Shown here piece after piece: positions 38,893-62,164 of a stretch of DNA of 64,000 nt; within the stretch, counting starts at the first letter, position 1; the number at the start of each line of letters is the position of its first letter. Source of the DNA: Shigella phage Z31; the sequence record MN655999. One strand, 5' to 3'. The position numbers and the translations under genes are program-made. Below the pieces are notes generated by a model, which worked only from the letters and a program-made list of their open reading frames with translations, had not been told where the DNA came from and searched no databases.

Positions 38893-39149
38893 GTAAGCCT
38901 CTTTTAAGTAACTATTAAGTTTTAATCTTTTATCTTAACGTATTCTATACGTTATACTTTAAAGCTTTTTAAAAGCTATTAAATAATCTTTTAAGAGTTT
39001 TAAAGTATCTGTATAGTTAAACTGTTAAGTAACCTTTTAAGTAAAAACCCACTTCGCAAAGATTAACACCTTGTCAAGTACATTGTCAACTTGCTTTTTA
39101 TAATTTTTTGCAGTAATGTATGTGGTTAATGATTTTAGAGGGAGTAAAA
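38893..39149. promoter_or_regulatory. AT-rich divergent intergenic region between minus- and plus-strand blocks
   Basis: TTGTCA and TATAAT hexamers present but spacing not canonical. Confidence 0.3.
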
Positions 39150-41849
39150 ATGGAAAACGTAGATTTTAAAAACTTACATTTAGTTGGCGATACAGAAACT
39201 GATGGTTTACTCCTTGAGTTCACTAAAGTGCACGTAATGGCTTTCGCAGACTATAAATCTGACGATGAAGAGCCACCTGTATGGGTCTTTACAGATGAGC
39301 CTATCCTCGGTCACAAGTATACCAAGTACATTAAGGGTGGTTTGCGTGAAGGTGTTGAGTTTGCGTTAAAGGCAAAACGACTTTGCATCCACAATGGTCT
39401 GGGGTATGACTGGTGGGTTTTCAATCACATTGCACCCGATTTGTGGAACTTTGATAATCCAAAGTGTAAGCCGTGGAGTAATTTCTTTCAGGATTCTCTT
39501 ATCCAGTCTCGTGTTCAGTGGATGGATAGACCAACTCCAAAGGGCTATAAAGGTGCTCATGGTTTGGCTGCATGGGGTGCTCGTGTTGGTGTCCGTAAAC
39601 CAGAGATTGAACATTGGGGTGTGTGGAATGCAGAAATCTTCACTCGTGTTGTGGAAGATATCCGTATTAACGCCAAAACTAAACGTGCACTGGATAATGA
39701 ATATCTCAAGCTGAAGAAGTGTGGCGTAGATACTTATGAAACCTACATGCGAGCTAAAGAAACATCTTTCTGGATGAGTCAACAGGCTATCAATGGTTGG
39801 AAAGCTGATAAAGAACTTATGGAGTTCCATGTAAAGGAACTTGACAAGTTGACTAATGAGCTTGCTTCAGAAGTTGAACCACATCTTCCTCCAACTATTA
39901 AGACCAAAGGTAAAGTCACTGGAGAAGAGTTTGCAAAAGCTTGGAATGAGTATGTTGAAGCATTTGGTCATGCAGATGGACTGAAGAGAATTACCAAGTA
40001 CCCTAAGACAAAGTATCGTCAACAGGTACGTAACGGTGAGATGCAGACATATGAAATCAAGCCGTTTGGTAAGCCAACTACAAAGATTTTTAACATTGAA
40101 AAGCGGAATTGCTATACACCAACCAACACTGTAACTGGCGAAGAGTACAAGGAAGGTTTTGTAGCAATGAAGGATGCTCGTGCAATTTGCAACGAGTTGA
40201 ATGCAAAGATTGGTAAGAAATGCAAAGACTGGAAGCCAGTAAAAACAGTTAAAACTGTGAAGTACTATAACAGTCATGTTGTTAACCACTTTGAACTTGA
40301 GTCAAGTCGCTACACAGGTTTGATTGATGCACCATATACACCAATTGAGTTCGAAGTTTCTCGTATGACTCAGGTAGCAGTTGTTAAAGACTACTTGAAA
40401 TCAGTTGGTTGGATTCCAGATGACTGGAACTACAAGAAAGACTCAGATGGTCGTCCTGTTAAGGTTTGTCGTTTCAAAGACAACAAAAAGATGATTACAA
40501 AACATCCTAAGTGGGATGAGATGGTGGAACGGTGTGGTTTGAGTTATGTTGAACATGAAGGTGTCCAGTACATTGAACATAACTGGTCTGTGAAGAAGTA
40601 CACAGATTTGCTTGAGCCTTGTTTAATCCGTACTTCACCAAAACTTACTGAATCATCTTATGATACGATTGAAGGTGAGCTTGGACAGAAGATTGCGAAA
40701 TACTATACTTTGATGCACCGACGTAGAACTATTGAGAACTCAAAAGATGATGAAAAAGGTTGGTTGAACCAGATTCGTCCAGATGGTCGCCTTAGTGCTG
40801 GTGCAATGGTGTTTGGTACTTCAACTGGACGTATGACACAATATGGTATTGTAAACGTACCGTCTGGTGCTGCTGTCTATGGAGCGCCTATGAGGGCAGT
40901 GTGGATTTGTGAAGAGGGGACTAACATTGTTTCTGTTGACCAGAACTCAGCCCAGCTAGTCCTTCTTTGTAACTTTATGGGTGATGAAGACTTCACTAAA
41001 GCAGTAACTGAGGGTAAAGAGTCAGTAGAGTTCACTAAGCAAGATGATGGTAGATACTACTGTAAGCATCTTGATAAGTACCTTAACCCAGAAACTGACA
41101 AGTATCTGCGTTATGATGCTGAAAATGACCTCTATGAAGTCTACACAGGGACTGATGCGCATACACTGAACAGTATTTACTTTGGTCTTAACAAAGAAGA
41201 GGATATTGTTCGTTGCAGGGAGACACAGGATGAGGAACTTCTTCACGAGATTACAAAAGGTCGTAAGAAGAGCAAAAATGGCATCTACGCCCTGTTATTT
41301 GGAGCCGGAGACGAGAAGTTTGCAAAAACTATCAAGGCATCATCTACGGAAGAAGGTGCATTGACTAAACAAACTTACTATATGCGTCTGCCAAAGATTA
41401 AGAAGTTACTTGATAGCTTAGAAGCCGATTTTAAGGCGTCTAAAAAGGCTCTGGAAGAGGTTTTTGGGAAGAACTCTTCAATTGCTAAAGGTGGTTATAT
41501 CAGGGTCGCTGGAGCATGGATATGGTGCAAATCTCCACATAAACTACTGAACTACCTCCTGATGAGTTCGGAAGCACAGATTCAGAATGAAGCCATCAAC
41601 CTAGCAGCAAGAAAAGCCTGTGAAGATGGCCTGACAAAACTGAATGCTCGAAAACCAGCTATCGGAGCAAGGTTACTTCTGGCATATCACGACGAAAATA
41701 GTTGGGAATGCCCAGAGGGTATGACACATGATATGAAAGCAATTGCTGACTGGATGTATGGGCAAGCTTCAAAAAACTTAGGTTTGAGGAAAGAAACACT
41801 TGTAACTGGTACAGCAAAGGTTGGTAAGAGCTGGTATGAGGTACATTGA
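39150..41849 (+). CDS. DNA polymerase, family A, with 3'-5' exonuclease domain
   Basis: Exo I LVGDTETDGL; motif B-like RKKSKNGIYALLFGAG; motif C AYHDENSWE; RBS GAGGGAG; track start 39120 judged too early. Confidence 0.85.
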   Translation: MENVDFKNLHLVGDTETDGLLLEFTKVHVMAFADYKSDDEEPPVWVFTDEPILGHKYTKYIKGGLREGVEFALKAKRLCIHNGLGYDWWVFNHIAPDLWNFDNPKCKPWSNFFQDSLIQSRVQWMDRPTPKGYKGAHGLAAWGARVGVRKPEIEHWGVWNAEIFTRVVEDIRINAKTKRALDNEYLKLKKCGVDTYETYMRAKETSFWMSQQAINGWKADKELMEFHVKELDKLTNELASEVEPHLPPTIKTKGKVTGEEFAKAWNEYVEAFGHADGLKRITKYPKTKYRQQVRNGEMQTYEIKPFGKPTTKIFNIEKRNCYTPTNTVTGEEYKEGFVAMKDARAICNELNAKIGKKCKDWKPVKTVKTVKYYNSHVVNHFELESSRYTGLIDAPYTPIEFEVSRMTQVAVVKDYLKSVGWIPDDWNYKKDSDGRPVKVCRFKDNKKMITKHPKWDEMVERCGLSYVEHEGVQYIEHNWSVKKYTDLLEPCLIRTSPKLTESSYDTIEGELGQKIAKYYTLMHRRRTIENSKDDEKGWLNQIRPDGRLSAGAMVFGTSTGRMTQYGIVNVPSGAAVYGAPMRAVWICEEGTNIVSVDQNSAQLVLLCNFMGDEDFTKAVTEGKESVEFTKQDDGRYYCKHLDKYLNPETDKYLRYDAENDLYEVYTGTDAHTLNSIYFGLNKEEDIVRCRETQDEELLHEITKGRKKSKNGIYALLFGAGDEKFAKTIKASSTEEGALTKQTYYMRLPKIKKLLDSLEADFKASKKALEEVFGKNSSIAKGGYIRVAGAWIWCKSPHKLLNYLLMSSEAQIQNEAINLAARKACEDGLTKLNARKPAIGARLLLAYHDENSWECPEGMTHDMKAIADWMYGQASKNLGLRKETLVTGTAKVGKSWYEVH

Positions 41850-43085: not shown

Positions 43086-43292
43086 ATGCAAGTCTTAGTA
43101 AACTATATCTACTGTTATGATACTGTTCACTCCACTACAACCTTAGCTCAACGTAACCCAATCGTCCCACGAGAAGGTGAGTTTGTTCGAATCGAGGGTT
43201 GGACTTACACTGTGGAAAGCATCATTCATAAGTTTGATGTTGCTGGTGATGTTCAAGTTATTGACGTAGAAATTGGTGGTAAGAGAAAATGA
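43086..43292 (+). CDS. hypothetical protein (68 aa; internal Met of track ORF)
   Basis: RBS GAGG upstream; stop overlaps ligase start. Confidence 0.4.
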   Translation: MQVLVNYIYCYDTVHSTTTLAQRNPIVPREGEFVRIEGWTYTVESIIHKFDVAGDVQVIDVEIGGKRK

Positions 43293-44392
43293 CAATACTG
43301 TACAAACAAAATAAAGATGGCTCTTTCAACGTCTGGTCATGCGTTGCTGTAGGTGACAAAGTTATTACAACCTACGGTAAAGAAAATGGCAAGATGATGT
43401 TTGAAGAGTATACAGCAGAACCTAAAAACATCGGTAAAAAGAATGAGCGTAACGCTGAACAGCAAGCTCTCTTTGAAGTTGCTGCTAAGTATAAAAAGCA
43501 GGTTGACCGCAAAGGTTATGCTTACACAAAAGAGTCTGCACAGAATACTGAGAAGGTAGGTGTACAGCTTGCTCATGATGCTGCAAAGGTTAGCCATGCA
43601 AAGTATCTGAAGTTCCCTGCTGATGCTCAACCGAAACTTGATGGTGTCCGTTGTAGGATTTCAAGGCACTTGAGTATTGGCAGTGTATTTACAGCATATT
43701 CTCGTGAGAATACTGTTTACAAAATCCCTACTGAACTAATACCTGACATTATGGCAATGTTAAGGCTCCACAAAGATGTTGATGAATTTGATGGAGAGAT
43801 TTATGCTCATGGGTGGGACTTAGAAGATATCGTCTCCATGATTAAAAATGAAGATAATCCTGACAGACACTTGCTCAAGTTTTACTGGTACGATATCTGT
43901 GACAGCACTAAGACGTGGCCTGAGCGTAGAGATATTATTGAGACTTCACCATTGAATGACTTTAGAGATGGCTGTAAAGTTGTCCCTGTTAAGTCTCGTC
44001 GTGTAAATTCTTGGGAAGAATTCGATGAAGCTCATGATAAGTGGGTTGAAGCTAAGTTTGAAGGTGCAATGTACCGTTCAATTTCTGAAGACTCTTTCTA
44101 TGAGTGTTGTCACCGTTCATACTTCTTGATTAAGCACAAGAAGATGCACACTGAAGAGTTTAAAGTGACTGGTGTAAAGACCGATAAACGTGGTCATGGC
44201 AAGTTCGTTGTAGAGACTCTTCCTAACGTCTTTGTAGATGTCTCATGGAAGACTACTCATGAGAAGAAACAGTATCTTGCTGAGCATCCTGAAGAGTTTA
44301 TCGGGAAGCCTTTAACGGTTCAGTTCCAGAAGATGACTCGTAAGGGGTCTTTACAGTTCCCTGTCGGGCTAGTTATTAGGGATTATGAATAA
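43289..44392 (+). CDS. lig: ATP-dependent DNA ligase
   Basis: Adenylation motif I PKLDGVRC; 367 aa. Confidence 0.8.
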   Translation: MTILYKQNKDGSFNVWSCVAVGDKVITTYGKENGKMMFEEYTAEPKNIGKKNERNAEQQALFEVAAKYKKQVDRKGYAYTKESAQNTEKVGVQLAHDAAKVSHAKYLKFPADAQPKLDGVRCRISRHLSIGSVFTAYSRENTVYKIPTELIPDIMAMLRLHKDVDEFDGEIYAHGWDLEDIVSMIKNEDNPDRHLLKFYWYDICDSTKTWPERRDIIETSPLNDFRDGCKVVPVKSRRVNSWEEFDEAHDKWVEAKFEGAMYRSISEDSFYECCHRSYFLIKHKKMHTEEFKVTGVKTDKRGHGKFVVETLPNVFVDVSWKTTHEKKQYLAEHPEEFIGKPLTVQFQKMTRKGSLQFPVGLVIRDYE

Positions 44393-44398
44393 AAGTTG

Positions 44399-44426
44399 TT
44401 GACATAGAAAATTTGGTGAGTATACT
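44399..44426 (+). promoter_or_regulatory. sigma70-like promoter TTGACA-16-TATACT
   Basis: -35 at 44399-44404, -10 at 44421-44426; directly downstream of ligase stop. Confidence 0.5.
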
Positions 44427-44456
44427 GAGCAGCATAAACCAACGGGTACTCACCAG

Positions 44457-44495
44457 CATCACTTAAGAGTCTTCTAAGAGGGTTTTTAAGTGATG
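44457..44495 (+). repeat. 39-nt element with perfect 10-bp inverted repeat CATCACTTAA / TTAAGTGATG (copy 1)
   Basis: Same element recurs at 45879-45917 and 46138-46176. Confidence 0.6.
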
Positions 44496-44575
44496 TTCGG
44501 TATGGTGCGGTAGTGTTTGGTTGGGTATGGCTTTGTATGGTCTGGTAATGTAGGGTCGGGCGCGGTATGGGTGGA
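44496..44575 (+). repeat. GT-rich tract of GGT-based 8-9 nt units
   Basis: ORF-free; strongly strand-asymmetric composition. Confidence 0.5.
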
Positions 44576-44660
44576 TGGTAGTAGCCACGTTAAAAATCTA
44601 CCAAGTTTCTAAAGAGTCTTCTGTTGAGGGTTCTTTACAAACAACTTAACAATAAACTAA

Positions 44661-45266
<606 letters not shown>

Positions 45267-45268
45267 TT

Positions 45269-45709
45269 ATGAATACAAAAGCATTAGCAGCAAAGTTTAG
45301 TTACGGTGACACTGTATCACATTCTGAGATGGATACCTTCTTAGGTATTGTGAAGCCAACTTATCAAGGTGACATTGTTAAGTACGAAGATGAAATGAAG
45401 GCTTATGCACTTACACGTCTAAACCGACTTGAGAAGTTTATTGAGAAGCTTCTTAAAGAAGAGAAGATTTATCTGGTTGCTTCAATGGGTGTTGGCTATC
45501 GTGTGGTTGAACCTAAGCATCAAGCAACTATTGCAAAACGTAAAATGTCTGGTAAGATTGGTCGTGCTTTAAAGCAAGCCACTCAAGCGATTGAGAATGT
45601 GAACACTATGGCACTTAGTCATCAAGAACGTTCACGACTGATTGAACAGCAAAACCATTTAGCTGCTATGAAAGCTAACATTAACAAGCAACGTAGAAAA
45701 CCTTTCTAA
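45269..45709 (+). CDS. hypothetical protein (146 aa)
   Basis: ORF track. Confidence 0.5.
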   Translation: MNTKALAAKFSYGDTVSHSEMDTFLGIVKPTYQGDIVKYEDEMKAYALTRLNRLEKFIEKLLKEEKIYLVASMGVGYRVVEPKHQATIAKRKMSGKIGRALKQATQAIENVNTMALSHQERSRLIEQQNHLAAMKANINKQRRKPF

Positions 45710-45720
45710 GTTGACTAGGT

Positions 45721-45743
45721 AGCCTCTTCGGAGGCTCCTTTTT
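45721..45743 (+). terminator. intrinsic terminator AGCCUC-UUCG-GAGGCU + UUUUU
   Basis: Perfect 6-bp stem, UUCG loop, T5 run. Confidence 0.6.
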
Positions 45744-45878
45744 AAAAGGTCTTTAAACATGGTCTTTTAATAAGGTTGGGTCTGGTGTGGTAAGGTTGGG
45801 TAAGGTGCGGTTTGGCGTGGTTTTGTCTGGTGCGGTCTGGTATGGGTAGTTAATCGGAGCTACATTAAAATTCGATTA

Positions 45879-45917
45879 CATCACTTAAGAGTCTTCTAAG
45901 AGGATTTTTAAGTGATG
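45879..45917 (+). repeat. 39-nt inverted-repeat element, copy 2
   Basis: CATCACTTAAGAGTCTTCTAAGAGGATTTTTAAGTGATG. Confidence 0.6.
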
Positions 45918-46137
45918 TATTGTGATGTATTGTTCGGTATGGTAAGGCAAGGCTAGGTCTGGTGTGGGTAGTTAGTCTCATCTACATTAAAATGAGACTC
46001 ATCTTTTTAAAAGGTCTTTAAACAGGGTTTTTAATAAGGTGATGAGAAGTGGTGTTAGGTTTGGTGTGGTTCTGTGCGGTACGGTTAAGTAAGGTGAGGT
46101 ATGGGTAGTTAATCGGAGCTACATTAAAATTCGATTA

Positions 46138-46176
46138 CATCACTTAAGGGTCTTCTAAGAGGATTTTTAAGCGATG
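46138..46176 (+). repeat. 39-nt inverted-repeat element, copy 3 (one arm substitution)
   Basis: CATCACTTAAGGGTCTTCTAAGAGGATTTTTAAGCGATG. Confidence 0.55.
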
Positions 46177-46287
46177 CTCGGTCGGGTTTGGTCGGGTTTG
46201 GTATGGTATGGTGTGGTAAGGTAGGGTTTGGTATGGAAGGATGGCAGTAGCCTTATAAAAAATCTGCCAAATAAGCTATAAAATCTG

Positions 46288-46316
46288 TTGACAAGTCAGG
46301 TGTTATAGCCTATTTT
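46288..46316 (+). promoter_or_regulatory. sigma70-like promoter TTGACA-17-TATTTT
   Basis: -35 at 46288-46293, -10 at 46311-46316. Confidence 0.4.
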
Positions 46317-46360
46317 TATACTCAACGTAATACAAAATTTAATATAACTTTGAGGTCATT

Positions 46361-46744
46361 ATGAAAAAGATTTTATTAGCTGCTGCAATGGTTATGGCAA
46401 TGAATTTACCAGTCAATGCAACAGAACTTCCCAATGTGGACTTATCAGGTGTTCCAGAAGACACTTGCCAGATTGTAAAAGGTGTTGCGCTATCTAATGG
46501 TGAGTTGCTTAAACCAATCTCTGAAGAGTCTTTGACAGAGATGACTGACAAGGTAACTGACTATCAGTACCGTGTTCTTGCAGAGTATTTCCTGCAATCT
46601 GCAAACATTAAAGAGAAGCACCATGACGATATTGATGCACAGGCTATGCTCAATCATCGTATTCAGTTTAAAGAAGATTTGATGCAAAAAGCTATGTATG
46701 GTGTTGAGTATTTCTTAGAAAACAGAAGCTGCACAGGTATTTGA
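46361..46744 (+). CDS. secreted protein (127 aa) with Sec signal peptide
   Basis: N-terminus MKKILLAAAMVMAMNLPVNA. Confidence 0.5.
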   Translation: MKKILLAAAMVMAMNLPVNATELPNVDLSGVPEDTCQIVKGVALSNGELLKPISEESLTEMTDKVTDYQYRVLAEYFLQSANIKEKHHDDIDAQAMLNHRIQFKEDLMQKAMYGVEYFLENRSCTGI

Positions 46745-46745
46745 T

Positions 46746-46958
46746 ATGGCTCTTAAAAAGTTACATCCCAGAAGCGGTTATGGTAAGATAATTGATGATA
46801 CAGACGGCTTTACAGTCTTTACAGTTATCTGTCAAGATGATTCACAGATTGAAAAGGCTCTTGATGATTATCTTAACGATGAACGTGAAAAGGTTAGGGC
46901 TACAAACATAGATTCACTGATTGACACCCCACGCAAACGGAAGAAGAAAGATGAATGA
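46746..46958 (+). CDS. hypothetical protein (70 aa)
   Basis: ORF track. Confidence 0.45.
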   Translation: MALKKLHPRSGYGKIIDDTDGFTVFTVICQDDSQIEKALDDYLNDEREKVRATNIDSLIDTPRKRKKKDE

Positions 46959-47250
46959 GGTTTTTGACCCTTATGCTCCACAAGATGATTGGGAGGCTGA
47001 CAGAGAGGCTGAAATGGAGAGTTATATTTGTCCAATGGATGTAGATGAAATGAGAGACTTCGTTGCACATCGTTTTAAGAGAGAGATTAAATCCAGAGGT
47101 CTTTCTCAAGAGCAAGTTGCTAAGATTTGTGGTATCTCTCAGGCTCGTGTATCCAACATAATCAATCTCACTGGTAATGTCTCTCTTGAGTTTATGTTGG
47201 AAGTATGTGAAAAATTTGGTGTTAATTTTAATTTAAGGTTGGCAGATTAA
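46951..47250 (+). CDS. small HTH DNA-binding protein (about 99 aa; internal ATG)
   Basis: QEQVAKICGISQARVSNIINLTG resembles helix-turn-helix. Confidence 0.45.
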   Translation: MNEVFDPYAPQDDWEADREAEMESYICPMDVDEMRDFVAHRFKREIKSRGLSQEQVAKICGISQARVSNIINLTGNVSLEFMLEVCEKFGVNFNLRLAD

Positions 47251-47251
47251 T

Positions 47252-47611
47252 ATGAAACGTGAAAACATTATCCACTCTGAAAACTTCGCATTAGGCTTTT
47301 ATGGTGTACCTACTCACCTTGAAAAGTATTATGGTGTGAAGATTCTTTCCAATCTTATTATGGCTTACAAAGATGGTAAGATTAAGCATACTGAGAAGAA
47401 ACGTGTCATGGGTTATATGGCTGTAGGTTCAGCAGTTTCTAACATTAAGCTGGAAACAACTAGCAGCCAGATTGTGAAAGACCACTTCATCAAAGAGCTT
47501 TACCACAATCTTGATGGTGTAGATGTTCAGGCTGTTTGGCTGGATGTTGATGGTCACAACTACACGAGCTTTGTTTTCAAAAACGATGACATTAAGTGTC
47601 TGTTCCCATAA
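47252..47611 (+). CDS. hypothetical protein (119 aa)
   Basis: ORF track. Confidence 0.5.
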   Translation: MKRENIIHSENFALGFYGVPTHLEKYYGVKILSNLIMAYKDGKIKHTEKKRVMGYMAVGSAVSNIKLETTSSQIVKDHFIKELYHNLDGVDVQAVWLDVDGHNYTSFVFKNDDIKCLFP

Positions 47612-47624
47612 TAGGTGATTAACT

Positions 47625-48140
47625 ATGATTGATATCTACTTACAAGATGCTCATGCAGACTTCCTTAAAGTGATGCTTAAAAAGTTTATGGCTTCACAGT
47701 ATGAGAATGAAGCATCTTTTAAAATAGTTACATGTGGCGACGAAGCTGGTTTTGTTGAGATTGAACATGAAGGTACTGGAAAGACTGTTTGCAAGTTACC
47801 TGATAGTATGTTCTCTAATACGTTCTTAACAAAGACTAGTATAAATGTTAAGCTTGTTCCTCAGATTGAAACATACTCTGGTACAGATTACCCTAAAGGC
47901 TTTAAATCACTGATGAAGCACTTCTTAGATGACTTTGTAAGCAATCTTATTAGTGAGGTAACAGAAAGCCGTACAATATTAACTGTAGAGAATATCGGAG
48001 GGGCTATCAGGATTACTTCTGACCGCTACTCTATGAGCCTCTTCGACTTCGTTCCTAAGAACTTTGATGGTATTCTGGATGAAGAAGATGACTGTGTAGA
48101 CTTTATATTGGCTCTTGAGCCAGTTTTTGAGGTTAAATAA
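47625..48140 (+). CDS. hypothetical protein (171 aa)
   Basis: ORF track. Confidence 0.5.
   Translation: MIDIYLQDAHADFLKVMLKKFMASQYENEASFKIVTCGDEAGFVEIEHEGTGKTVCKLPDSMFSNTFLTKTSINVKLVPQIETYSGTDYPKGFKSLMKHFLDDFVSNLISEVTESRTILTVENIGGAIRITSDRYSMSLFDFVPKNFDGILDEEDDCVDFILALEPVFEVK

Positions 48141-54148: not shown

Positions 54149-62164
<8,016 letters not shown>

What the first reader, a model, noticed from the sequence alone, without database searches (positions are those of the whole stretch)
45744..46270. Two tandem ~265-bp structured GT-rich repeat units in an ORF-free gap
Seen: between the terminator at 45721-45743 and the promoter-like site at 46288-46316 there are two consecutive ~265-bp units. 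Each has an AAAAGGTCTTTAAACA box, GGT-based 8-9 nt tracts, a hairpin with a CTACATTAAAA loop, an identical 41-nt segment, and a 39-nt element with a perfect 10-bp inverted repeat (CATCACTTAA...TTAAGTGATG). There is no coding capacity on either strand. Inference: a structured non-coding RNA, a protein-binding array (origin-like iterons), or a nucleic-acid decoy.
Basis: seen in the sequence. Interest (0 to 1): 0.7.

Follow-up and report, generated by a model that had tools for sequence, protein, structure and literature searches.

The report
Phage VIPR guide-RNA (vrRNA) array
The GT-rich repeats are genes for four small guide RNAs of a phage-encoded VIPR system, a CRISPR-like RNA-guided DNA-silencing machine first described in 2026 preprints, and at least three of this phage's five guides appear aimed at a satellite element found in E. 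coli chromosomes.

Summary
The window is a Felix O1-like phage (Felixounavirus). The ORF-free gap 45744-46270 holds four tandem vrRNA genes. Each is a tract of 10-14 GGYNN pentamers followed by a conserved pseudoknotted 3' tail. A fifth vrRNA lies at 44499-44602. The two ORFs between them are vipr (44679-45266, 96% identical to the solved SUSP1 Vipr protein, PDB 36pp, Cas7-like fold) and its accessory gene vap1 (45269-45709). Together they form a type II VIPR (Viral Interference Programmable Repeat) locus, as described in bioRxiv 10.64898/2026.04.26.720920 and .720927. In that system one Vipr protomer binds each repeat and hides GGY. The NN dinucleotides read double-stranded DNA, skipping every third base, and this silences transcription.

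I found the gene-array link independently. A plain (GGTNN)x7 scan of viral contigs returned 65 loci, and 34 encode a homologue of the window's ORF. I also reproduced the targeting rule. Guides vrA, vr1 and vr2 match a satellite element at 93%, 86% and 95% of NN positions, with the skipped base at codon position 3. Guides vr3 and vr4 have no target found.

The system is already known. The residual open point is the undescribed 5' hairpins between guides.

The parts
44399..44426 (+). Sigma-70-type promoter (TTGACA-16-TATACT) upstream of vrRNA A and vipr
   Evidence: 11 of 12 consensus matches. The same promoter is conserved in Felix O1.
44457..44495 (+). IR39 hairpin, the 5' element preceding vrRNA A
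   Evidence: exact pattern match, 0 expected by chance; the + strand RNA folds at -20.2 kcal/mol against -9.7 for the - strand.
44499..44568 (+). vrRNA A guide tract, 14 GGYNN units (NN = AT GC AG TT TG AT TT AT CT AA AG CG GC AT)
   Evidence: The predicted target matches 26/28 NN positions in satellite locus L145 at 3964-4005.
44569..44602 (+). vrRNA A 3' tail with pseudoknot (GTGG:CCAC, stem GGTAG/CTACC)
   Evidence: covariation table. A tail pseudoknot is reported for the SUSP1 clade in both preprints.
44679..45266 (+). vipr gene (195 aa, Cas7-like RAMP). The ORF lister starts it at GTG 44664, but homologues start at the ATG at 44679.
   Evidence: E 5e-127 and about 96% identity over 195 aa to PDB 36pp 'SUSP1 Vipr protein'. 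AF2 model with pLDDT 93, best Foldseek hits Csm3/Cas7; start position in the alignment.
45269..45709 (+). vap1, the Vipr accessory gene (146 aa)
   Evidence: The gene sits in the same position as SUSP1 agp038. It is 99% identical in the SUSP1 locus L015. It occurs in 117 phage records, the same number that carry a Vipr at 90% identity or more. It has no Pfam hit.
45721..45743 (+). Intrinsic terminator after vap1
45744..45773 (+). BOX element 1 (two GGTCTTTAA-like half-sites, weak + strand hairpin), the 5' element of vrRNA 1
   Evidence: -5.0 kcal/mol, z -2.0, so only weak support for a hairpin.
45774..45843 (+). vrRNA 1 guide tract, 14 GGYNN units
   Evidence: The target matches 24/28 NN positions in the satellite tape-measure gene (L144 12892-12933, L145 7171-7212).
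45844..45876 (+). vrRNA 1 tail (pseudoknot GTAG:CTAC, stem ATCGGA/TTCGAT)
45879..45917 (+). IR39 hairpin between vrRNA 1 and vrRNA 2
   Evidence: a continuous 20-bp + strand RNA hairpin, -24.1 kcal/mol, z -8.2, against -12.9 on the - strand.
45916..45965 (+). vrRNA 2 guide tract, 10 units. The first four are degenerate (TGT in place of GGT) and overlap the 3' arm of IR39.
   Evidence: The target matches 19/20 NN positions at L146 5181-5210.
45966..46008 (+). vrRNA 2 tail (pseudoknot GTAG:CTAC, stem AGTCTCA/TGAGACT) followed by a U-run, which makes it terminator-like
46009..46037 (+). BOX element 2, the 5' element of vrRNA 3
46038..46102 (+). vrRNA 3 guide tract, 13 units. The first four are degenerate, and the 9-unit core starts at 46058.
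   Evidence: No target was found.
46103..46135 (+). vrRNA 3 tail, identical to the vrRNA 1 tail
   Evidence: 51-nt identical segment.
46138..46176 (+). IR39 hairpin between vrRNA 3 and vrRNA 4 (one arm mismatch)
46180..46234 (+). vrRNA 4 guide tract, 11 GGYNN units
   Evidence: No target was found.
46235..46268 (+). vrRNA 4 tail (pseudoknot AAGG:CCTT, stem GGCAG/CTGCC)
46288..46316 (+). Sigma-70-type promoter of the downstream 127-aa gene, which marks the end of the VIPR locus

Best explanation
Region 45744-46270 is the downstream vrRNA array of a type II VIPR (Viral Interference Programmable Repeat) locus of the SUSP1 clade. The whole locus runs from about 44399 to 46270 and is ordered: promoter, vrRNA A, vipr, vap1, terminator, vrRNA 1-4.

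Shown in the literature for the 96%-identical SUSP1 system:
- Each roughly 100-nt vrRNA is a tract of GGYNN repeats capped by a 3' pseudoknot.
- One Vipr (Cas7-like RAMP) protomer binds each repeat. It sequesters GGY and presents the NN dinucleotides.
- The filament reads double-stranded DNA with a one-nucleotide skip (target nNNnNN...) and forms an R-loop triplex.
- Binding represses transcription without a PAM, and vap1 enhances the effect.

Shown here for this window:
- All sequence-level hallmarks of the system are present.
- Three of the five guides match a chromosomal E. coli satellite element under the 1-nt-skip rule.

Inferred:
- During infection the phage uses these guides to silence the satellite that would parasitise it.
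- The IR39 hairpins and the terminator-like tails delimit the individual guides.
For: 1. The protein partner is present. Window 44679-45266 matches PDB 36pp 'SUSP1 Vipr protein' at E 5e-127 and about 96% identity over its full length. The residues the paper names as contacts are unchanged: H17, K33, R39, E71, M72, K82, K88, R138, C173, D177, W178 and R179. The AF2 model (pLDDT 93) matches Csm3/Cas7 RAMPs.

2. The repeat tracts fit the published definition. They hold 10-14 units, within the published range of 9-16 YNNGG. Across 19 related phages the flanking genes are 99-100% identical. The NN positions are unalignable, yet the GGY register is kept.

3. The gene-array link was found independently of the literature. 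A (GGTNN)x7 scan of IMG/VR gave 65 loci with degenerate arrays. Their consensus is G98% G97% Y(T88/C10) NN, with a mode of 10-13 units. In 34 of the 65 loci a homologue of the window ORF abuts the arrays.

4. The tail pseudoknot covaries at 3 of 4 positions (AAGG:CCTT, GTGG:CCAC, GTAG:CTAC). The enclosed stems have four different sequences.

5. The architecture matches SUSP1. My parse of the SUSP1 locus (L015) gives 1 upstream and 3 downstream modules, equal to the paper's sRNA-seq peaks.

6. Targeting works under the published rule.
- With skip 1, vrA scores 0.93, vr1 0.86 and vr2 0.95 on satellite loci. Unit-order shuffles reach at most 0.79, 0.79 and 0.85. Skips of 0, 2 or 3 give 0.75 or less.
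- The skipped base falls on codon position 3 at all three sites.
- Of 59 unique guides from 23 related loci, 34 reach 0.85 or more with skip 1. None does with other skips or with shuffled unit order.
- No self-target in the window exceeds 0.75.

7. The published mechanism is described.
Against: - No expression or binding data exist for this particular phage.
- vr3 and vr4 have no detectable target in 11 satellite loci, and no exact match in IMG/VR.
- vr2 and vr3 begin with degenerate units (TGT, TGA or AGT in place of GGY), so their effective length is uncertain and they could be partly decayed.
- The best target matches are 86-95%, not 100%, and only 11 of 474 satellite-bearing genomes were sampled.
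- The intrinsic terminator at 45721-45743 lies upstream of the array and no clear sigma-70 promoter follows it. How the four downstream guides are transcribed is therefore not explained by sequence alone.
Confidence: 0.95

Rival explanations
1. A replication origin. Either G-rich transcripts from the upstream promoter form R-loops that prime DNA synthesis, or the repeats are iterons for an initiator protein.
For: - GC skew is strong, 0.5-0.67 on the non-template strand.
- The region sits among replication genes: DNA polymerase at 39120-41849 and ligase at 43289-44392.
- An AT-rich stretch follows the array.
Against: - The cumulative GC-skew minimum is at 39.09 kb, where transcription diverges, not here.
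- A 5-bp period puts successive sites on opposite faces of duplex DNA.
- The NN positions are hypervariable between near-identical phages.
- The same arrays in unrelated phages always abut a Cas7-like gene.
- The SUSP1 homologue is experimentally an RNA-guide system.
Confidence: 0.01
2. An RNA sponge, decoy or cis-regulatory leader. On this reading the GGU triplets, spaced 5 nt apart, titrate a ring-shaped RNA-binding protein, as the TRAP-binding site of the trp leader does, or a host factor.
For: - A triplet plus a 2-nt spacer is exactly the geometry of a TRAP site.
- Tract length is quantised at 10-13 units.
- The arrays lie on the sense strand downstream of a co-oriented gene in 97 of 102 cases.
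Against: - The protein that binds the repeats is identified: Vipr, a helical filament with one protomer per repeat.
- The NN positions carry target information, which a sponge would not need. 34 of 59 guides match satellites only under the skip-1 rule.
- No TRAP-like gene was found.
Confidence: 0.02
3. Recombination hot spots or mobile regulatory cassettes, like the T4 PeSL elements. On this reading their function is to shuffle gene modules, or they act as Chi-like GT-rich tracts that modulate RecBCD/RecA.
For: - Module content and gap length vary greatly among near-identical phages: gap B 246-648 bp, gap A 269-693 bp.
- The vipr-vap1 cassette is absent from Felix O1 but 95-100% identical across genera.
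- The tracts contain CTGGTG-type near-Chi words.
Against: - Shuffling is a plausible side effect of repeated tails and hairpins, but it does not explain the strict GGY register, the pseudoknot covariation or the satellite matches.
- No exact Chi site is required by the data.
Confidence: 0.05
4. The locus is VIPR, but part of this array is decaying. On this reading vr2, vr3 and/or vr4 are non-functional relics rather than active guides.
For: - vr2 and vr3 begin with four degenerate units each.
- vr3 and vr4 have no target at or above the shuffle null.
- Felix O1 keeps a degenerate orphan tract at a locus without vipr, which shows that such relics persist.
Against: - All four tails and pseudoknots are intact.
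- vr4 has 11 perfect GGT units.
- Only about half of SUSP1-clade guides had identifiable targets in the paper as well, 20 of 41.
- vr2 has a 19/20 target match that includes its degenerate units.
Confidence: 0.2

Closest known systems
Type II VIPR system of Escherichia phage SUSP1 (Vipr + vap1 + vrRNAs; bioRxiv 10.64898/2026.04.26.720920 and 10.64898/2026.04.26.720927; PDB 36pp)
   Same: - Vipr is about 96% identical, and vap1 is 99% identical.
- The genomic position is the same, between the DNA ligase gene and the 127-aa gene.
- The order is the same: one upstream vrRNA, then vipr, vap1 and a downstream array.
- The GGYNN tracts and the tail classes with pseudoknot are the same.
- The target class is the same, an E. 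coli satellite carrying tape-measure and baseplate-hub genes.
   Different: - The host phage is a Felixounavirus (closest record HK3), not a Suspvirus.
- There are four downstream guides instead of three.
- All five guide sequences are unique among the 23 related loci compared.
- Two guides start with degenerate units.
Class 1 CRISPR-Cas crRNA arrays and Cas7 backbone filaments (types I, III and VII)
   Same: - A RAMP/Cas7 fold oligomerises along a guide RNA and flips bases periodically with a thumb domain.
- Variable guide segments are capped by a conserved structured handle, and the guides are arranged in arrays.
   Different: - There are no CRISPR repeats, no Cas1/Cas2 and no spacer acquisition.
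- The guide is non-contiguous: 2 of every 5 nt pair, and the target skips 1 of every 3.
- The outcome is silencing, and this type has no nuclease.
- The system is phage-encoded.
TRAP binding sites in Bacillus trp leader RNAs ((G/U)AG triplets with 2-3 nt spacers, one per protein subunit)
   Same: Conserved triplets are spaced about 5 nt apart in single-stranded RNA. There are roughly 9-11 units, and each is bound by one subunit of an oligomer.
   Different: - The protein fold is different, and it forms a ring rather than a helical filament.
- In TRAP sites the spacers carry no information. Here the spacers are the information.
- This comparison rests on my own knowledge of TRAP and was not tested here.
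Hammerhead-interspersed or staggered vrRNA arrays of other VIPR types
   Same: Several guides sit in tandem and need some way to be separated.
   Different: Here the separators are a 20-bp G·U-rich hairpin (IR39), a BOX element and terminator-like tails. No ribozyme was detected (Rfam scan).

Membership tests
VIPR system (type II, SUSP1 clade) | A Vipr protein (minimal RAMP: RRM core, G-loop, thumb) is encoded next to the repeats. | tested here: met
   (E 5e-127 to PDB 36pp SUSP1 Vipr). (profile E 4e-80). (Cas7/Csm3 fold, Foldseek E about 1e-5). G-loop [12 protein letters not shown].
VIPR system (type II, SUSP1 clade) | The residues that contact GGY and DNA are conserved. | tested here: met
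   In the alignment H17, K33, R39, E71, M72, K82, K88, R138, C173, D177, W178 and R179 are identical to SUSP1.
VIPR system (type II, SUSP1 clade) | A vap accessory gene lies immediately downstream of vipr. | tested here: met
   The 146-aa ORF at 45269-45709 is 99% identical to the ORF in the SUSP1 locus L015 and syntenic with agp038. It occurs in 117 phage records, the same number as carry Vipr at 90% identity or more.
VIPR system (type II, SUSP1 clade) | vrRNA tracts have 9-16 YNNGG repeats with conserved GGY and hypervariable NN. | tested here: met
   The five tracts have 10-14 units. NN is hypervariable and the register is conserved among 19 distinct related gaps.
VIPR system (type II, SUSP1 clade) | An invariant 3' tail folds into a hairpin with a pseudoknot. 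| tested here: met
   All 13 tail variants keep the 4-bp pseudoknot helix, with covariation at 3 of 4 positions. The stems take four different sequences and 12 of 13 are fully paired; the satellite L154 variant has one terminal mismatch.
VIPR system (type II, SUSP1 clade) | Targets obey the 1-nt-skip rule. Natural targets are competing mobile elements, and the skipped base falls on the codon wobble position. | tested here: met
   Met for 3 of 5 guides and for 34 of 59 related guides, only with skip 1. vr3 and vr4 are unresolved.
VIPR system (type II, SUSP1 clade) | No self-targeting at 80% NN match or more. | tested here: met
   The best match within the 64-kb window is 0.64-0.75. The roughly 22 kb of the genome outside the window was not scanned.
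VIPR system (type II, SUSP1 clade) | vrRNAs are expressed as roughly 100-nt RNAs that co-purify with Vipr and repress transcription of targets. | not testable with these tools
   Shown for SUSP1 by sRNA-seq, pull-down, GFP and plaque assays. Predicted sizes here (tract plus tail) are 84-104 nt.
CRISPR array | Identical direct repeats of 25-40 nt separate unique spacers of similar length, with cas genes nearby. | tested here: not met
   The repeat finders give 5-nt units and 259-265-nt super-repeats only. No cas gene other than the Cas7-like vipr was found.
Curated Rfam RNA families | A covariance-model match at the gathering score. | tested here: not met
   There were four matches over 44000-48000, all far below the gathering score; the one inside the finding's region was DUF2815 RNA (E 6, 18.7 bits against a gathering score of 41.2).
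Iteron-type replication origin | Directly repeated duplex binding sites of about 17-22 bp, phased with the helix, next to an initiator gene and an AT-rich unwinding element. | tested here: not met
   The period is 5 nt. No initiator gene is adjacent. The skew minimum lies elsewhere.

The most novel reading that the evidence does not exclude
The 39-nt IR39 element may be an undescribed maturation signal for type II vrRNA arrays. As + strand RNA it forms a continuous 20-bp hairpin rich in G·U pairs, and it sits exactly between one guide's tail and the next guide's tract. The weaker BOX element may play a related part. A double-strand-specific RNase such as host RNase III could cut the hairpin and so set the 5' end of each guide. 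This would matter because the 3' arm of IR39 already runs into the first, degenerate repeat units of vr2. Neither preprint mentions hairpins, handles or maturation for these arrays.
Probability: 0.35. Interest if true: 0.4.

Novelty: already known. Interest (0 to 1): 0.3.

Why it matters
VIPR is a recently described RNA-guided DNA-recognition system with a non-contiguous code. It has been proposed as an ancestor of the CRISPR RAMP proteins. This window is a natural, complete example in a Felix O1-like phage, a group used for phage typing and biocontrol. Identifying it explains a long-unannotated 'DR_4 / repeat_region' in many Felixounavirus records. It assigns functions to two 'hypothetical' genes. 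It also predicts a concrete phage-satellite conflict: three guides match a satellite whose baseplate-hub gene is detectable in 474 of 5426 complete E. coli genomes. That conflict could affect host range and the efficacy of therapeutic phages. No new kind of system is added. The analysis does independently reproduce the published gene-array association and the 1-nt-skip rule from sequence data alone.

Tried and rejected
- **Rfam scan of 44-48 kb:** nothing near the gathering score.
- **Whole-region RNA folding on both strands:** similar z-scores, so uninformative.
- **Felix O1 and wV8 genome papers:** only unrelated direct repeats are discussed. The wV8 record merely labels the region 'DR_4'. 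There is no RNA-seq or origin literature for this genus.
- **Origin hypothesis via GC skew:** skew simply follows transcription direction, with its minimum at 39.09 kb.
- **RNA polymerase pause-array idea (G-10 Y-1 G+1):** rejected because N5 is a pyrimidine in only 44% of units.
- **C-free 'anti-Rho, unstructured spacer' idea:** rejected because C is present at 15-17% in the NN positions.
- **G-quadruplex, tRNA-CCA-binding, Shine-Dalgarno-track and primase-site ideas:** these were considered from general knowledge. They were dropped once the arrays proved to be linked to one protein family with a solved structure.
- **Exact 1-nt-skip pattern scans of IMG/VR for vr4 (22 specified bases) and the vr3 core (20 bases):** 0 hits.
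- **Four additional satellite loci:** no target for vr3 or vr4.
- **BOX as an RNA hairpin:** only weak support, -5 kcal/mol and z about -2.

Full report
**What is in the sequence**

The window is a Felix O1-like myophage. The 2-kb region around the finding is 98% identical to Escherichia phage HK3, and about 90% identical to wV8 and many other Felixounavirus records.

The gap 45710-46360 lies between a 146-aa ORF and a 127-aa ORF, and contains no ORF longer than 38 aa.

- the terminator at 45721-45743 and the promoter at 46288-46316;
- two AAAAGGTCTTTAAACA boxes;
- three CTACATTAAAA loops;
- the 39-nt inverted repeat, with 0 matches expected in shuffles.

The essential feature is different from what was described. 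The 'GGT tracts' are strict pentamer repeats, GGYNN. GGT density reaches 11 per 60 nt against 0.8 expected.

Each ~265-bp unit holds two tracts, so the gap has four modules. Each module is a 5' element (BOX or IR39), then 10-14 GGYNN units, then a conserved hairpin tail. A fifth module sits at 44457-44602, behind a strong sigma-70 promoter in the preceding gap.

**Comparative behaviour**

In 20 related loci the flanking 146-aa protein is 99-100% identical. Both gaps, however, vary widely in length: 246-648 bp and 269-693 bp. Module content is shuffled. Within the tracts the NN positions are unalignable between phages, while the GGY register is preserved. That pattern indicates selection on a periodic scaffold carrying fast-evolving information.

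**An unbiased route to the partner protein**

Before consulting any literature on the element, I scanned IMG/VR for (GGTNN)x7. Setting aside microsatellites and coding repeats, 65 loci from unrelated viral contigs carry degenerate arrays.

- The unit consensus is G 98%, G 97%, Y (T 88%, C 10%), then two near-random positions.
- The modal length is 10-13 units.
- The arrays are intergenic.
- The upstream ORF is co-oriented with the array in 97 of 102 cases.

An all-against-all comparison of the ORFs in these loci found one family of about 190 aa in 34 of 65 loci, directly abutting the arrays. The window's ORF at 44664-45266 belongs to that family, with blastp E-values down to 6.5e-43. The family has no Pfam domain and 525 homologues, nearly all unnamed or labelled 'hypothetical'.

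**Identity**

- A profile of the family hits one solved structure, PDB 36pp 'SUSP1 Vipr protein'.
- The window protein, read from the ATG at 44679, aligns end to end with it at E 5e-127 and about 96% identity.
- An AlphaFold model (pLDDT 93) resembles Csm3/Cas7 RAMPs of type III and type VII CRISPR systems.

Two 2026 preprints describe the system as VIPR.

- vrRNAs consist of 9-16 YNNGG repeats plus an invariant pseudoknotted tail.
- One Vipr protomer binds each repeat and buries GGY.
- The NN dinucleotides pair with DNA, skipping every third target base, and form an R-loop triplex.
- The result is PAM-free transcriptional silencing, enhanced by the accessory gene vap1.
- SUSP1 has one vrRNA upstream and three downstream of vipr-vap1.

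SUSP1's record shows the same gene order and a 532-bp downstream gap. My parse of that locus (L015) gives exactly 1 + 3 modules. This validates reading the window as 1 + 4.

**Membership tests run here**

- All contact residues named in the structure paper are unchanged.
- The tail pseudoknot is supported by covariation. The 4-bp helix is AAGG:CCTT, GTGG:CCAC or GTAG:CTAC in different tail classes. The enclosed stems have four unrelated sequences.
- No self-target in the window exceeds 75% NN match.

**Targets**

The paper reports that SUSP1-clade guides converge on an E. coli satellite that carries tape-measure and baseplate-hub genes. I located that satellite using the window's own hub gene (59140-59937). 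It matches 474 of 5426 complete E. coli genomes at up to 93% identity. I fetched 11 variants of the satellite locus.

Under the 1-nt-skip rule:

| Guide | NN match | Site |
|---|---|---|
| vrA | 26/28 | 3' end of a 92-aa satellite gene |
| vr1 | 24/28 | 5' part of the tape-measure gene, in two variants |
| vr2 | 19/20 | 3' end of an unannotated small ORF |

Unit-order shuffles reach at most 0.79, 0.79 and 0.85 for these three guides. Skips of 0, 2 or 3 reach 0.75 or less. At all three sites the skipped base falls on codon position 3, as published.

The result generalises. Of 59 unique guides from 23 related loci, 34 reach 0.85 or more with skip 1. None does with other skips or with shuffled unit order.

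Guides vr3 and vr4 have no target in this small sample and no exact match in IMG/VR. This is in line with the paper, where about half of the guides (20 of 41) had identifiable targets.

**What remains open**

The preprints do not mention hairpins, handles or maturation for these arrays.

IR39 folds as + strand RNA into a continuous 20-bp hairpin with several G·U pairs, at -24.1 kcal/mol and z -8.2. The - strand gives only -12.9 kcal/mol. A compensatory C-G to U-A change is seen in a related phage (sequence inspection). IR39 sits exactly between one guide's tail and the next tract, so it may be a processing signal. BOX is only weakly structured.

How the downstream guides are transcribed past the terminator at 45721-45743 is also unclear.

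**Verdict**

The element is a member of an already described system. Its guide sequences are unique to this phage. Its predicted targets fit the published picture of phage-satellite conflict.

Noticed in passing
L022 (Felix O1, NC_005282) about 3740-3900, minus strand as stored: At the syntenic site Felix O1 lacks vipr and vap1. It still keeps one 'orphan' module between ligase and ORF87: promoter, IR39, about 11 partly degenerate pentamers, an intact GGCAG/CTGCC tail, then a second promoter. This could be a relic of cassette loss or a guide usable in trans. I did not check whether Felix O1 encodes Vipr elsewhere in its genome.
   Followed up: partly
window 59140-59937 (-); loci L144-L154: The phage baseplate-hub gene matches chromosomal 'phage baseplate protein' genes in 474 of 5426 complete E. 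coli genomes, at up to 93% DNA identity over 68% of the gene. These genes lie in islands of about 10 kb (about 14 kb where IS elements have inserted) that carry recombinases, an HNH gene, a tape-measure gene and the hub gene. The islands are inserted at several sites (yciI/tonB, DUF72/yecD, dinB, wrbA). This is the satellite that the guides target.
   Followed up: yes
L153 3276-3350 and L154 3762-3831 (minus strand): Two of the satellites carry their own 14-15-unit GGYNN tract with a phage-type tail (GGGTGGATGGTAGTAGCCAC...). No vipr was noticed nearby. This fits the paper's remark that satellites encode vrRNAs. In L154 the tail stem has a compensatory change (GTCG/CGAC).
   Followed up: partly
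window 44415-44422 and 44447-44454: An 8-bp inverted repeat, GGTGAGTA ... TACTCACC, brackets the -10 box and the start region of the promoter that drives vrRNA A and vipr. It is conserved in Felix O1. It may be an operator, for example for the HTH regulator at 46921-47250 or for vap1.
   Followed up: no
window 44664-45709 compared with 117 phage records: The vipr-vap1 cassette is 95-100% identical at protein level across Felixounavirus, Mooglevirus and Suspvirus, although the surrounding DNA is only about 90% identical. It is absent from about half of the 258 related records. This suggests recent horizontal spread or frequent loss.
   Followed up: partly
L122, L132, L133, L141, L053; L025, L142; L129, L116, L126: Other viral contigs show different array punctuation. 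Some have a 4-nt GGCA unit that shifts the register every 10-13 pentamers. Some have a GGCTAATGG linker. Others have longer repeated hairpins between tracts. These probably correspond to the 'staggered' and other array architectures of other VIPR types.
   Followed up: no
L139 about 3170-3230, L140 near position 44: In two related contigs a GGYNN tract is followed directly by a sequence with a tRNA T-arm signature (GGTTCGATTCC). A tRNA-like element may therefore serve as the vrRNA 3' end or as a processing site.
   Followed up: no
wV8 record NC_012749 (L001 2438-2495, 3831-3888); momo and nataliec records: Public annotations mark parts of these vrRNA genes only as 'DR_4' or 'repeat_region', and vipr and vap1 as hypothetical proteins. 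Many Felixounavirus records could be re-annotated.
   Followed up: yes
window 46361-46744: The first gene after the VIPR locus encodes a 127-aa protein with an N-terminal signal-peptide-like sequence (MKKILLAAAMVMAMNLPVNA). It has no known family (phrog_4332).
   Followed up: no
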